DNA from: a virus
Lineage: Duplodnaviria; Heunggongvirae; Uroviricota; Caudoviricetes
IMG/VR virus record: IMGVR_UViG_2695420651_000024
Reading direction: 5' to 3' (one strand)
DNA length: 42,748 bases
Below, in pieces: positions 19,168-21,259 of this stretch. The notes under the pieces were generated by a model that was not told the origin of the DNA, did no database searches, and was given only the letters and a program-made list of their open reading frames with translations. The position numbers were made by a program, and so were the translations under genes. The stretch's first letter is position 1; the number at the start of each line of letters is the position of its first letter.

Positions 19168-19941
19168 TCAGGCGGGATAAGATTGGGAGGTGGGAAAAAC
19201 GATTTCTTTATAACAGCGACAATTCGGGAGCTCGCCAGCGTGACCTGTCATGCCGTCAAGCGTTGGAGGTTTGCCCCATTCGACAAATTTACCTTCCATT
19301 TCCCGATGAGAATGCCTGACGTCACCATCTTCGGCTGTACGCCAGATATAACCATTCGAACCAATTGACAGCGCACGCGCCTGATCCAGCGCGCCGGTTG
19401 CACGTCCAAGTTCAGTACGGGCAATCAGGTCAGCTCTGGACTTTGCTATATCACCCGATGCGGCTATTTCTTTAGCAAAATATTCTGCTCTCCCACCGGT
19501 CACAACAGCTTCTGTCGCCCGATTCTGGATGTCGTACACCCTGTCAGCCGCCTCGAGGGGGAGCGATTTGATGTACTTGACCTGTTCGGCGATGATGGAT
19601 TGCATCACCTGGCCCACAGGAGCGCTTTCCACAAGATTGCGGAGCTCGCGACTGATGTTCTTGCTGTGTTGCCGCCAAACTTTCTCGTTCTGCCGGGTTA
19701 GGTCCGCAGTAAAGTTTTCCGCGACCTTTGTCGCCCAGGGGGTGATGATTTCACTGTAGCGTTCCAGCGCCTCAATAATTTCCGTGATACTGTCATTTGA
19801 ACCATCGTAGCGACCATTTACGATGTCTCCGACCGCCCGCGCTATCCTGCGTAGGCTGGTTCGATAGCGGATTTCCGCCTGACGGTTCCTGCGGTTCGTC
19901 ATCAGATTCGCCGATGCCGGGCGGCGCTTCATCTTCGGCAT
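19168..19941 (-). CDS. Head morphogenesis protein, Mu F / SPP1 gp7 family
   Basis: 257 aa; C-terminal ...GELPNCRCY motif; true start uncertain because the track ORF overlaps the portal 3' end by about 150 nt. Confidence 0.65.
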   Translation of the reverse strand: MPKMKRRPASANLMTNRRNRQAEIRYRTSLRRIARAVGDIVNGRYDGSNDSITEIIEALERYSEIITPWATKVAENFTADLTRQNEKVWRQHSKNISRELRNLVESAPVGQVMQSIIAEQVKYIKSLPLEAADRVYDIQNRATEAVVTGGRAEYFAKEIAASGDIAKSRADLIARTELGRATGALDQARALSIGSNGYIWRTAEDGDVRHSHREMEGKFVEWGKPPTLDGMTGHAGELPNCRCYKEIVFPTSQSYPA

Positions 19942-21259
19942 TCTCGATGTCCTCGTCGGTAATGGATGCCCCGATGCCGGTTACGTCAGAATTTTCGCGC
20001 AAATCAGTCATAGCGGCTTTCAGTGTCATCAGACCATCACCCAGCGCCGTACTGATTGCGTTGGTAGTGTTTAACGCCACCGTTGAGCGATCGACATCAG
20101 ACATTTGCCAGAGCGGGTTAAACTCAAACGTGAAATCGTCCGGCAGCGGCTTGCCAAGCTCCGAACGATGCATGATGTCCAGTATCCGCCGCACCGGAAG
20201 ACGTAAACGCCTCTCCTGTAACGAGCTTACCCGGTCGTAATAGTTGGCAAGGTCTGCATCGCCGGTAGAAAATCCTTTCGGGGACTGTCCGAACAACCGC
20301 ACCAGTGGGATACCAACAGCGCCACTAATCTGTTCTGCAAACTGCGAAAGGATGTCATCCAGACCACTGAAGCTGTACTGATGCGTTTCAAACTTATCCC
20401 GCGAGTCCATGAGTGTCATACCTTCATTGCTCTGGAACTGTCGAATCAGGTCGATATTCTTCAGCAACGCTTCATACGCAGGACCACCAAGTGCGATAAG
20501 CTCGCGTAGCTTCTCCACGCTGTAGGTGCGCAGATGCGCCTTGTAGACCAGCTGCGCCGCGCCGACAGTAGCGCTGTCGAACGCGGTAAGACGATCCCAG
20601 ATACGCTCTACAACCGACATTCCCCATTCGTTCTCGGTCATCTTCTGCTGAAATGGCAGCGTGACGCCATCAAAGCGAATCAGGCGACTGTGATGAATGC
20701 GCTAGGCAGGAATTCCCGTTGCTGTGGTCACCACATCGTAAAACTCAGGTTTACCCAGGTCCGGCCCCATATCTTTAATGCGGCGGGTCAGTACCGGGTC
20801 GATCATCCAGCGGTCGAGCGGGAGAATCCCCTTAAACTTGCCCTTACCGATGGTTTCGGGTCGCAGCGGGGTCATTGGTGCCTGCCCCTCAATCATGATG
20901 AAACCCACCGCGCCGCCGTAGAGGCGCGACCATTTCAGCACGTCATTCAGCGCATCCCAGATTTGCAACTCATCCAGTTGTGATTCGAGAATGCCACGAT
21001 CTTTTGCATCAATTTCCGACGTGATGCGAATGCCTTTGCGGGTCATATCATCCGGGATAGCATCGACTGCTTCGCCGATGATCCAGGATGAACGATAGGA
21101 CCATTCCACCAGCATGCGGTTACGACTGGTGAAATTAGCCCGGTAGGTGGATGCTGAGTGCTGGTTAGGTGTCTGCATCCCTACGCGGGCAATAAAATTC
21201 TCATAACCATCAGCTGTGGCCTGCGCAGTTCGCCGCAGGGCTTGTTTGTTTCGTGCCAT
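19793..21259 (-). pseudogene. Portal protein gene interrupted by an in-frame amber (TAG) codon
   Basis: ORFs 20702..21259 and 19793..20641 are in the same frame; the only stop between them is TAG (complement of 20702..20704): ...TTATGIPA*RIHHSRLIRFDGVTLPFQQKMTENEW...; located right after TerL with ATGA overlap. Confidence 0.6.

What the first reader, a model, noticed from the sequence alone, without database searches (positions are those of the whole stretch)
19793..21259. Portal gene carries an in-frame amber codon, so the prophage may be defective or suppressor-dependent
The two ORFs downstream of TerL are in the same frame and separated only by a TAG (complement of 20702..20704), with continuous protein-like sequence on both sides (...TTATGIPA*RIHHSRLIRFDG...MTENEW...). 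An intact portal is essential, so this is either a recent nonsense mutation, a sequencing error, or a phage maintained in an amber-suppressing background.
Basis: seen in the sequence. Interest (0 to 1): 0.5.

Follow-up and report, generated by a model that had tools for sequence, protein, structure and literature searches.

The report
Prophage portal gene killed by amber
One G-to-A change at a Dcm-methylated site has turned a conserved tryptophan codon in this E. coli prophage's portal gene into a stop codon, an ordinary recent knockout that most likely stops an otherwise intact prophage from making infectious particles.

Summary
The 1467-nt portal gene (complement 19793..21259, PF06381 Phage_portal_3/DUF1073) has an in-frame TAG at codon 186 (complement 20702..20704). 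It differs from the intact allele WP_000113491.1 (ETEC H10407, O103:H2 12009) by that single base, TGG(Trp) to TAG. Trp is present in 100 of 102 full-length homologues, all of them single proteins of about 488 aa.

A sequencing error is unlikely. The window is the start of contig CYCH01000004.1 (GCA_001285725.1). An independent assembly of run ERR137804 gives the same TAG, and so does SRR7724638 on a different portal allele.

The wild-type context is CCTGG, a Dcm site, and the change is the textbook 5-methylcytosine deamination transition. Only two such positions in the gene can give a stop. The other one (Trp59) is also TAG in 4 of 51 IMG/VR copies.

Every other prophage gene checked against strain 12009 (about 50 CDSs; the invertible tail-fibre region at 1..3184 was not checked this way) is intact. 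The window has no tRNA, and at least five of its genes use TAG as their normal stop. The best reading is a recent hotspot nonsense mutation that makes the SEN34-like prophage portal-less. Suppressor dependence has no support, although the host genome could not be inspected. This is ordinary and of low interest.

The parts
19793..21259 (-). Portal gene (PF06381 Phage_portal_3 / DUF1073 / TIGR01555), 488 codons plus stop, now a pseudogene because of one in-frame amber
20702..20704 (-). Amber codon 186 (TAG). The ancestral codon is TGG (Trp). The changed base is window 20703 (T on the + strand, C in the intact alleles).
20702..20706 (+). Mutated Dcm site. The + strand reads CTAGG here and CCAGG in intact alleles (coding strand CCTAG versus CCTGG). 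The change is at the internal, Dcm-methylated cytosine.
   Evidence: Dcm/VSP biology from PMC2715241
20702..21259 (-). Truncated N-terminal product, 185 aa (deposited as CTU71054.1, 'putative bacteriophage protein')
19793..20641 (-). Residual 282-aa ORF from the internal ATG at codon 207. It is the C-terminal part of the portal (CTU71039.1). It has no convincing Shine-Dalgarno sequence upstream. Residues 186-206, which include invariant R192, R195 and G198, are missing from both called ORFs.
21259..22881 (-). Large terminase gene immediately upstream, intact (540 aa, identical to WP_001130793.1). It overlaps the portal start by 1 nt.
19168..19902 (-). Mu-F-like minor head / head morphogenesis gene immediately downstream, overlapping the portal 3' end by 110 nt. 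It is intact here but frameshifted in strain 12009.

Best explanation
This is a real, evolutionarily recent nonsense mutation. A G:C-to-A:T transition changed TGG (Trp186) to TAG in the portal gene of a SEN34-like (Brunovirus-like) temperate myovirus prophage. The prophage sits between yfhH and yfhL in an E. coli isolate (assembly GCA_001285725.1, contig CYCH01000004.1).

Origin (inferred): the ancestral sequence GCC-TGG-C contains the Dcm site CCTGG. The cytosine opposite the middle G of the codon is the one Dcm methylates. Deamination of 5-methylcytosine gives a T:G mismatch, and if this escapes Vsr very-short-patch repair it is fixed as CTAGG, which reads TAG on the coding strand.

Consequence (inferred from family knowledge): translation stops after 185 of 488 residues. 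This removes most of the portal domain, so no dodecameric portal forms, DNA cannot be packaged, and induction yields no infectious particles in a normal non-suppressing host. Immunity, replication, lysis, capsid and tail genes are still intact.
For: Shown:
- Single-base difference from the intact allele WP_000113491.1. It is the only difference from strain 12009 between window 19614 and 23565.
- None of 246 complete E. coli genomes carrying this 61-mer has the TAG.
- The window is the first 42,748 bases of CYCH01000004.1.
- The same TAG is in the Logan assembly of ERR137804 (100% identical over 9.9 kb) and in SRR7724638.
- In SRR7724638 the TAG is the only difference across 4.5 kb from the intact prophage of strain JNEC-KY175, on an allele that differs from the window's at 30 or more portal sites.
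- Trp186 is present in 100 of 102 full-length homologues of 58-92% identity, and all are single proteins.
- The wild-type gene has three CCTGG sites. Only 2 of their 6 methylated positions (nt 176 and nt 557) give a stop, out of 153 possible nonsense substitutions, and the window's change is one of those two.
- The other site, Trp59 (nt 176), is TAG in 4 of 51 IMG/VR copies of the gene. All four carry one identical allele.
- 3 of the 27 SNPs between the window and the 12009 prophage lie on Dcm-methylated positions, against 0.12 expected.
- No other internal stops in about 50 prophage CDSs.
- SEN34, whose single 488-aa portal gene is 85% identical at the DNA level, is a mitomycin-inducible, plaque-forming myovirus.

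From the literature: Dcm methylates CCWGG, and deamination gives CTWGG T:G mismatches that VSP repair normally corrects (PMC2715241). Dcm sites are recognised deamination hotspots in enterobacteria (PMC10710837, which cites Cherry 2018).
Against: - Dcm activity in this particular host and methylation of this site were not observed.
- ERR137804 may be the read set behind the GenBank assembly, so it checks the assembly, not the sequencing.
- The TAG on the second allele could have arrived through a gene-conversion patch of 428 bp or less (the alleles are identical between nt 241 and 668) instead of a second mutation.
- The four Trp59-amber copies share one allele, so they count as one event, and that allele also has a nonsense change (Gln126) that is not at a Dcm site.
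- Loss of function is inferred. No induction data exist, and another resident prophage could supply a portal in trans.
Confidence: 0.82

Rival explanations
1. Sequencing or assembly error: the true base is G and the portal is intact.
For: No complete E. coli genome has the TAG. No hit in the viral, metagenome or species-representative genome collections. Other 'split portal' records found through the 282-aa ORF (DEC12B, an ETEC metagenome scaffold, ERR7776847) do turn out to be indels, runs of N or clustered miscalls with TGG or CGG at codon 186.
Against: An independent de Bruijn assembly of run ERR137804 gives the same base within 9.9 kb of perfect identity. An unrelated run (SRR7724638) has the same TAG on another allele. 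A clean single transition in a non-homopolymer context is not a typical Illumina or assembly artefact.
Confidence: 0.04
2. Suppressor-dependent or leaky phage: the host carries an amber suppressor tRNA (supE/supF-like), or natural UAG read-through (the stop is followed by C) gives enough full-length portal, so the prophage remains viable.
For: The prophage is otherwise fully intact. A virion needs only 12 portal subunits. More distant solved portals have Ser or Tyr at the aligned position, so a substitution there might be tolerated. From my own knowledge, suppressor-carrying coliforms have been reported in nature.
Against: No tRNA or Rfam hit in the window. There is only one in-frame amber. 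At least five prophage genes terminate with TAG (7133..7687, 8045..9109, 10001..11989, 26377..28563, 36966..37259), so the phage shows no adaptation to suppression. Trp is nearly invariant in the close family, and no standard suppressor inserts Trp efficiently. The allele is very rare, as expected for a dead end. From my own knowledge, amber mutants in the portal genes of lambda, T4 and P22 are tight lethals in su- hosts.
Confidence: 0.05
3. Selected domestication: loss of the portal was favoured in the host. This would keep immunity, lysis or tail functions, or a tailocin-like product, while abolishing phage spread. That would explain why portal-null alleles recur.
For: Nonsense alleles of this portal occur on three different haplotypes (window, SRR7724638, and the IMG/VR Trp59/Gln126 allele). 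The tail and lysis modules are intact in the window.
Against: Three of the four nonsense changes are at the only two Dcm-derived nonsense positions. Mutation bias alone predicts this, so selection need not be invoked. The alleles are rare and show no sign of spread. A portal-null prophage still kills its host on induction, so the benefit is unclear. Other copies decay at other genes (MuF frameshift in 12009).
Confidence: 0.08
4. Naturally split gene or programmed recoding: the two halves are separate genes, or the TAG is decoded by design.
For: Two ORFs are called, and both carry PF06381 hits in the public annotation.
Against: All 102 full-length homologues, the 338 complete E. coli genomes whose match covers at least 80% of the query, SEN34 and Hafnia phage yong1 have one uninterrupted gene of about 488 aa. 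The 21 residues between the stop and the next ATG include invariant positions. The nearest allele differs only by this base.
Confidence: 0.01

Closest known systems
Dcm (CCWGG) 5-methylcytosine deamination hotspots: the lacI amber hotspots (Coulondre, Miller, Farabaugh and Gilbert 1978) and the lambda cI amber mutations through which Lieb defined very-short-patch repair (own knowledge; Lieb 1991 and Lieb and Bhagwat 1996 are in the reference list of PMC2715241; Cherry 2018 is cited in PMC10710837)
   Same: The same sequence change: the internal C of CCWGG becomes T, giving CTAGG, which reads as an amber codon. It lies in a phage or E. coli gene and recurs at the same nucleotide. SNPs between near-identical prophage copies are enriched about 25-fold at Dcm positions.
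   Different: Here the amber is read from the opposite strand (TGG to TAG, not CAG to TAG). It was found in natural isolates' prophages, not in a laboratory selection. Methylation of the site and Vsr status were not measured.
Portal proteins of family PF06381 / TIGR01555 (HI1409 family, DUF1073): Salmonella phage SEN34 portal (Brunovirus), Pam3 portal (PDB 8hds), Pseudomonas phage E217 gp19 (8fvh)
   Same: Strong HMM and sequence matches. The gene order is TerS-TerL-portal-MuF-like-DUF2213-cement-major capsid. The portal gene is 85% identical at the DNA level to that of SEN34, a plaque-forming myovirus.
   Different: The window's copy is interrupted at codon 186 and cannot encode the full protein.
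Classical conditional-lethal amber (sus) mutants in phage portal genes, such as lambda Bam, T4 gene 20 am and P22 gene 1 am (own knowledge)
   Same: A single UAG in the portal gene of an otherwise complete phage genome. Such a phage would be expected to grow only with an amber suppressor.
   Different: Those were isolated deliberately on suppressor hosts. Nothing here indicates a suppressor host, and the allele sits in wild clinical or environmental isolates.
Mutational decay of resident prophages in E. coli (cryptic or defective prophages)
   Same: A point lesion in an essential morphogenesis gene while the rest remains intact. The sister copy in O103:H2 12009 carries a different lesion, a frameshift in the MuF-like gene, and both copies have a frameshifted pin invertase.
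   Different: This is a very early stage: only one essential gene is hit and there are no deletions or IS insertions.

Membership tests
Phage portal protein, PF06381 Phage_portal_3 / TIGR01555 HI1409 family | Profile match above the curated threshold | tested here: met
   With Trp restored at 186: PF06381 E=6.9e-106, 354 bits (cut-off 33.8), residues 55-402. TIGR01555 251.8 bits (cut-off 196.25).
Phage portal protein, PF06381 Phage_portal_3 / TIGR01555 HI1409 family | Sequence homology to proteins shown by structure to be portal dodecamers | tested here: met
   Pam3 portal 8hds E=2.6e-37; 9jlf and 9l01 portals E about 1e-23; E217 gp19 8fvh E=2e-14.
Phage portal protein, PF06381 Phage_portal_3 / TIGR01555 HI1409 family | Position directly after the large terminase gene and before the head morphogenesis, scaffold and capsid genes | tested here: met
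   Order on the minus strand: TerS 22884..23456, TerL 21259..22881, portal 19793..21259, MuF-like 19168..19902, DUF2213 17933..19153, cement 17423..17929, major capsid 16470..17411.
Phage portal protein, PF06381 Phage_portal_3 / TIGR01555 HI1409 family | Uninterrupted ORF of about 480-490 codons able to encode the whole protein | tested here: not met
   TAG at codon 186. The gene is therefore a portal pseudogene, not a functional member.
Dcm-site 5-methylcytosine deamination hotspot mutation | Ancestral sequence is CCWGG and the change is C to T at the internal cytosine (G to A on the other strand) | tested here: met
   Intact alleles have CCTGG at nt 554-558. The window has CCTAG, which is + strand CCAGG to CTAGG at 20703.
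Dcm-site 5-methylcytosine deamination hotspot mutation | Recurrence at the same or equivalent sites in independent lineages, above the background rate | tested here: met
   The same TAG occurs on two portal alleles, each with an otherwise identical intact counterpart. The only other Dcm-derived nonsense site (Trp59) is TAG in 4 of 51 IMG/VR copies, all one allele. 3 of 27 SNPs versus 12009 are at Dcm positions, 0.12 expected. Caveat: a short conversion patch cannot be excluded for the second allele.
Dcm-site 5-methylcytosine deamination hotspot mutation | Host expresses Dcm and the site is methylated | not testable with these tools
The prophage's own C5-methyltransferase (37232..38245) shares only the catalytic motif with K-12 Dcm, so its specificity is unknown.
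Suppressor-dependent (amber/sus) phage | A suppressor tRNA (CUA anticodon) is available, either phage- or host-encoded | tested here: inconclusive
   Phage side: not met. ARAGORN finds no tRNA gene in the window and there are no Rfam matches. Host side: could not be examined.
Suppressor-dependent (amber/sus) phage | Genome adapted to suppression: TAG avoided as a normal terminator, or several in-frame ambers | tested here: not met
   At least five prophage genes end in TAG, and the portal TAG is the only internal stop in about 50 CDSs.
Naturally split or recoded gene | Homologues also have two genes or a stop at this position | tested here: not met
   102 of 102 full-length homologues are single proteins, with Trp (100) or Met (2) at the position. 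The close E. coli, Salmonella, Citrobacter and Hafnia phage copies are each a single 1467-nt gene.

The most novel reading that the evidence does not exclude
Dcm methylation may act as a built-in weak point that repeatedly and predictably knocks out the portal gene of this widespread SEN34-like prophage family, always at the same two tryptophan codons. Host cytosine methylation would then be a measurable driver of prophage domestication, possibly helped by selection for portal-less, non-transmissible but still immune and lysis-competent prophages. A corollary is that Vsr very-short-patch repair should preferentially restore these ambers in heteroduplexes with intact relatives.
Probability: 0.1. 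Interest if true: 0.4.

Novelty: already known. Interest (0 to 1): 0.15.

Why it matters
For annotation, this locus should be recorded as a single portal pseudogene with one internal stop, not as two 'putative bacteriophage proteins'. The prophage should be scored as probably non-inducible to infectious particles even though it looks complete to prophage-finding tools. Biologically it is a clean natural example of a textbook process: 5-methylcytosine deamination at a Dcm site creating an amber codon, acting on a resident prophage. It adds a small observation, that both Dcm-derived nonsense positions of this gene are found mutated in public genomes. It does not reveal a new mechanism, a new genetic code or a new kind of element.

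Tried and rejected
1. Exact-pattern scans for the TAG allele in IMG/VR, JGI metagenome contigs and GTDB species-representative genomes found nothing. The allele is too rare for these collections.

2. Six of the nine contigs found through the exact 185-aa product (L009-L014) looked at first like further carriers. They are contigs that simply end at nt 555-557 of the gene, and where the base is visible it reads TGG or another codon. Because the look-up requires an exact 185-aa product, it selects for contigs ending there. N-terminal fragments of many other lengths exist in the same cluster.

3. The 282-aa C-terminal ORF in E. coli DEC12B (EHX25246.1), an ETEC metagenome scaffold and ERR7776847 suggested more amber carriers. 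All of them have G at nt 557 and owe the split to 1-bp indels, a run of N or clustered miscalls.

4. I looked up exact products for ten other hypothetical nonsense truncations. Only the 52-, 58-, 109- and 220-aa products are on record. Only the 58-aa product (Trp59) was later explained, through IMG/VR.

5. A 61-mer search for Trp59-TAG in complete genomes was uninformative. The carrier allele probably has other SNPs inside the 61-mer, so carriers and wild type score alike.

6. The phage records vB_EcoM-606R2 and relatives are predicted prophage regions that include host genes, so I did not use them as evidence of inducibility. I used SEN34 instead.

7. The prophage-encoded C5-methyltransferase is not Dcm-like, so it cannot be invoked for methylation of CCWGG.

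8. Literature searches for the run and assembly accessions, and for Acb1 together with DUF1073, found nothing. Cherry 2018 is not held in the library.

9. I did not predict a 3D structure. Loss of 62% of the protein makes domain-level mapping unnecessary.
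Full report
**The observation.** On the minus strand, window 19793..21259 is a single 1467-nt reading frame with one internal stop, a TAG at codon 186 (complement of 20702..20704). The ORF finder therefore lists a 185-aa ORF (20702..21259) and a 282-aa ORF that starts at the next ATG, codon 207 (19793..20641). With Trp restored at codon 186, the protein matches Pfam PF06381 (Phage_portal_3, formerly DUF1073) in one stretch covering residues 55-402 (E=6.9e-106). It matches TIGR01555 above its cut-off. It also matches portal proteins with solved structures: Pam3 8hds (E=2.6e-37), two others near 1e-23, and E217 gp19. The gene lies directly after the large terminase gene (21259..22881) and before a Mu-F-like head morphogenesis gene (19168..19902), a DUF2213 protein, a cement protein and the major capsid gene. 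The identification as the portal gene is sound.

**What the stop replaces.** The gene matches 382 of 5426 complete E. coli genomes, and none is identical. Against the annotated intact gene of ETEC H10407 and O103:H2 12009 (WP_000113491.1, 488 aa), the window differs at exactly one base, nt 557 A versus G, which changes TGG (Trp186) to TAG. A 61-mer centred on the stop finds 246 complete genomes, all with one or more mismatches, so none carries the TAG. Salmonella phage SEN34, Hafnia phage yong1 and the E. coli prophage records also have one 1467-nt gene. In an alignment of 102 full-length homologues of 58-92% identity from the 5.8-billion-protein collection, the position is Trp in 100 and Met in 2. 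The 21 residues between the stop and the next ATG contain invariant R192, R195 and G198. This rules out the 'always two separate genes' refutation and any natural split or recoding.

**Source and reality of the base call.**
- The exact 185-aa product is deposited as CTU71054.1. It maps to contig CYCH01000004.1 of assembly GCA_001285725.1 at the same coordinates as in the window. The fetched locus equals the reverse complement of window 10702..31259 base for base. So the window is the first 42,748 bases of that contig.
- The Logan assembly of run ERR137804 contains a 9.9-kb contig 100% identical to the window, TAG included. This may be the same isolate's read set, so it checks the assembly more than the sequencing.
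- Run SRR7724638 gives a 51-kb contig with the same TAG in a prophage about 98% identical overall. Its portal differs from the window's at 30 or more sites, the nearest flanking differences being nt 240 and nt 669.
- That second allele has its own intact counterpart in strain JNEC-KY175. Across 4.5 kb the TAG is the only difference.
- A random sequencing error repeated at the same base in unrelated runs is very unlikely.
- Other apparent split portals found through the 282-aa ORF (DEC12B, an ETEC metagenome scaffold, ERR7776847) have G at nt 557 and are indels, N runs or miscalls. Six contigs found through the 185-aa product merely end at that point. None of these is a further carrier.

**How the mutation arose.** The intact sequence is ...CCT GCC TGG CGC..., which contains CCTGG, a Dcm site. 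On the window's + strand the change is CCAGG to CTAGG at position 20703, at the internal cytosine that Dcm methylates. Deamination of 5-methylcytosine gives thymine in a T:G mismatch. Vsr very-short-patch repair exists to correct such mismatches in CTWGG/CCWGG, and failures give C-to-T transitions (PMC2715241). CCWGG sites are recognised deamination-prone positions in enterobacteria (PMC10710837, citing Cherry 2018). From my own knowledge, the lacI amber hotspots of Coulondre et al. (1978) and Lieb's lambda cI ambers are the same class.

The intact portal gene has only three Dcm sites. Of their six methylated positions only two, nt 176 (Trp59) and nt 557 (Trp186), give a stop, out of 153 possible nonsense substitutions (48 of them G:C-to-A:T transitions). 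That made a prediction I could test. In 51 IMG/VR loci retrieved with a pattern that accepts any purine at the last two positions of codon 59, scanning the whole gene for stops found four loci with TAG at codon 59. These four share one allele. It differs from its nearest intact relative at three positions, all G:C-to-A:T transitions: nt 176, nt 376 (Gln126 to TAG, not at a Dcm site) and nt 923. That allele accounts for the 58-aa product recorded on 19 contigs.

Separately, 3 of the 27 SNPs between the window and the 12009 prophage lie on Dcm-methylated positions, where 0.12 are expected. By my Poisson estimate P is about 2e-4, or about 6e-3 if the portal SNP itself is excluded. I take the Dcm origin as well supported but inferred, because methylation in this host was not observed. 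Whether the two Trp186 amber alleles are two mutations or one mutation moved by a conversion patch of 428 bp or less cannot be decided.

**State of the rest of the prophage.**
- The window corresponds to the prophage inserted between yfhH and yfhL in O103:H2 12009, with the integrase next to yfhL.
- From 3185 to the end it differs from 12009 by 27 substitutions and one 1-bp indel in 39.6 kb.
- Translating the roughly 50 annotated CDSs in the window shows no internal stop other than the portal amber.
- The 1-bp indel is a frameshift in 12009's MuF-like gene that the window lacks, so the two sister copies carry different lesions.
- At least five prophage genes use TAG as their normal terminator.
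- The window encodes no tRNA and has no Rfam match.
- SEN34, the classified relative, is mitomycin-inducible, forms plaques and has myovirus morphology (PMC5261728). A urinary E. coli phage close to this group is also listed with myovirus morphology (PMC12945033). The intact form of this element is therefore a working phage.

**Consequence (inferred).** The 185-aa product lacks 62% of the protein and most of the PF06381 domain. Even if the 282-aa ORF were translated, which is doubtful given the lack of a convincing ribosome-binding site, 21 conserved residues would be missing. A portal-less tailed phage cannot nucleate proper proheads or package DNA. From my own knowledge, amber mutants in lambda B, T4 gene 20 and P22 gene 1 are tight lethals without a suppressor. 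Induction should therefore lyse the cell without releasing infectious particles of this prophage. The exceptions would be an amber suppressor in the host, a related resident prophage supplying a portal, or sufficient read-through. None of these could be tested here. The intactness of everything else says the lesion is recent.

**Verdict.** Its leading interpretation, a recent nonsense mutation that makes the prophage defective, is supported. Sequencing error is unlikely, and suppressor dependence has no support but is not formally excluded. The added value of this second look is the mechanism of origin: a Dcm hotspot, with the sister hotspot codon also found mutated in public data. This is a known kind of event in a known kind of gene, so novelty is 'already known' and interest is low.

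Noticed in passing
window 1..332 and 3185..3516; junction at 3184/3185: The contig begins with a perfect 332-nt inverted copy of 3185..3516, the constant part of the tail-fibre gene. Window 1..3184 is the reverse complement of 12009's segment, which carries the pin invertase, two tail-fibre assembly genes, alternative fibre ends and a 215-aa ORF. This looks like a multi-site Pin-type invertible tail-fibre region caught in another orientation. The palindromic contig start is probably an assembly artefact of mixed orientations. There is also a 7-bp difference at window 343, next to the presumed crossover site.
   Followed up: partly
window 1866..2419 (+): The pin/DNA-invertase gene next to the invertible segment is frameshifted, with only a 117-aa ORF 1866..2219. 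It is the same as in O103:H2 12009, where RefSeq marks pinE as a pseudogene. Inversion, if it still occurs, would need an invertase supplied in trans.
   Followed up: partly
window 19614 (MuF-like gene 19168..19902); L005 22538: The sister prophage in O103:H2 12009 has an extra T that frameshifts the MuF-like minor head gene, while the window's copy is intact. Two near-identical prophages are each disabled, by different single lesions in adjacent head genes.
   Followed up: yes
L047, L049, L053, L063 (IMG/VR UViGs), portal nt 176, 376, 923: Four IMG/VR copies share a portal allele with two amber codons, Trp59 (at a Dcm site) and Gln126 (not at a Dcm site). It is three G:C-to-A:T transitions away from the nearest intact allele, L041. 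Hosts were not identified. The matching 58-aa product is on 19 contigs, including a 5.5-Mb chromosome.
   Followed up: partly
L018 (Logan ERR7776847), portal nt 502-504 and 555-557: This contig's differences from the window cluster exactly on two of the three Dcm sites, CCTGG reading CACAG and CACGG. This looks like methylation-related base-calling error, possibly long-read data. It is a reminder that Dcm sites are also artefact-prone in some technologies. Neither TAG-bearing contig (window, L006) shows that clustered pattern at the portal's Dcm sites.
   Followed up: no
protein names: NCBI and UniRef label many members or fragments of this DUF1073/PF06381 family 'anti-CBASS protein Acb1 family' or 'Acb1-like N-terminal domain'. 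Pfam now calls the family Phage_portal_3, and the PDB relatives are portal dodecamers. This looks like an annotation inconsistency. No paper in the library links Acb1 and DUF1073.
   Followed up: partly
P0031, P0033, P0035, P0038; portal/MuF overlap, window 19793..19902: A few assemblies encode portal-MuF fusion proteins of 655-697 aa. The fusion point differs in each, so they look like sporadic indels or errors in the 110-nt overlap, not a conserved programmed frameshift.
   Followed up: partly
window 37232..38245 (+): The prophage encodes a C5 cytosine methyltransferase that shares only the catalytic PCQ region with K-12 Dcm, so its target is unknown. It holds 5 of the 27 SNPs against 12009, a local cluster at 37507..37971.
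   Followed up: partly
window 42680..42682 (yfhL, 42488..42748): Three consecutive base differences from 12009 (CAA versus GCG) lie inside the host gene yfhL at the very end of the window, plus one more at 42580. This may be a host-lineage difference or a small conversion tract near the attachment site.
   Followed up: no
window 31862 and 39040: These are the two other SNPs against 12009 that lie on Dcm-methylated positions. At 31862 the window has CCAGG and 12009 has CCAAG. At 39040 the window has CCTAG and 12009 has CCTGG, a synonymous change. Together they suggest ongoing 5mC deamination in both lineages.
   Followed up: yes
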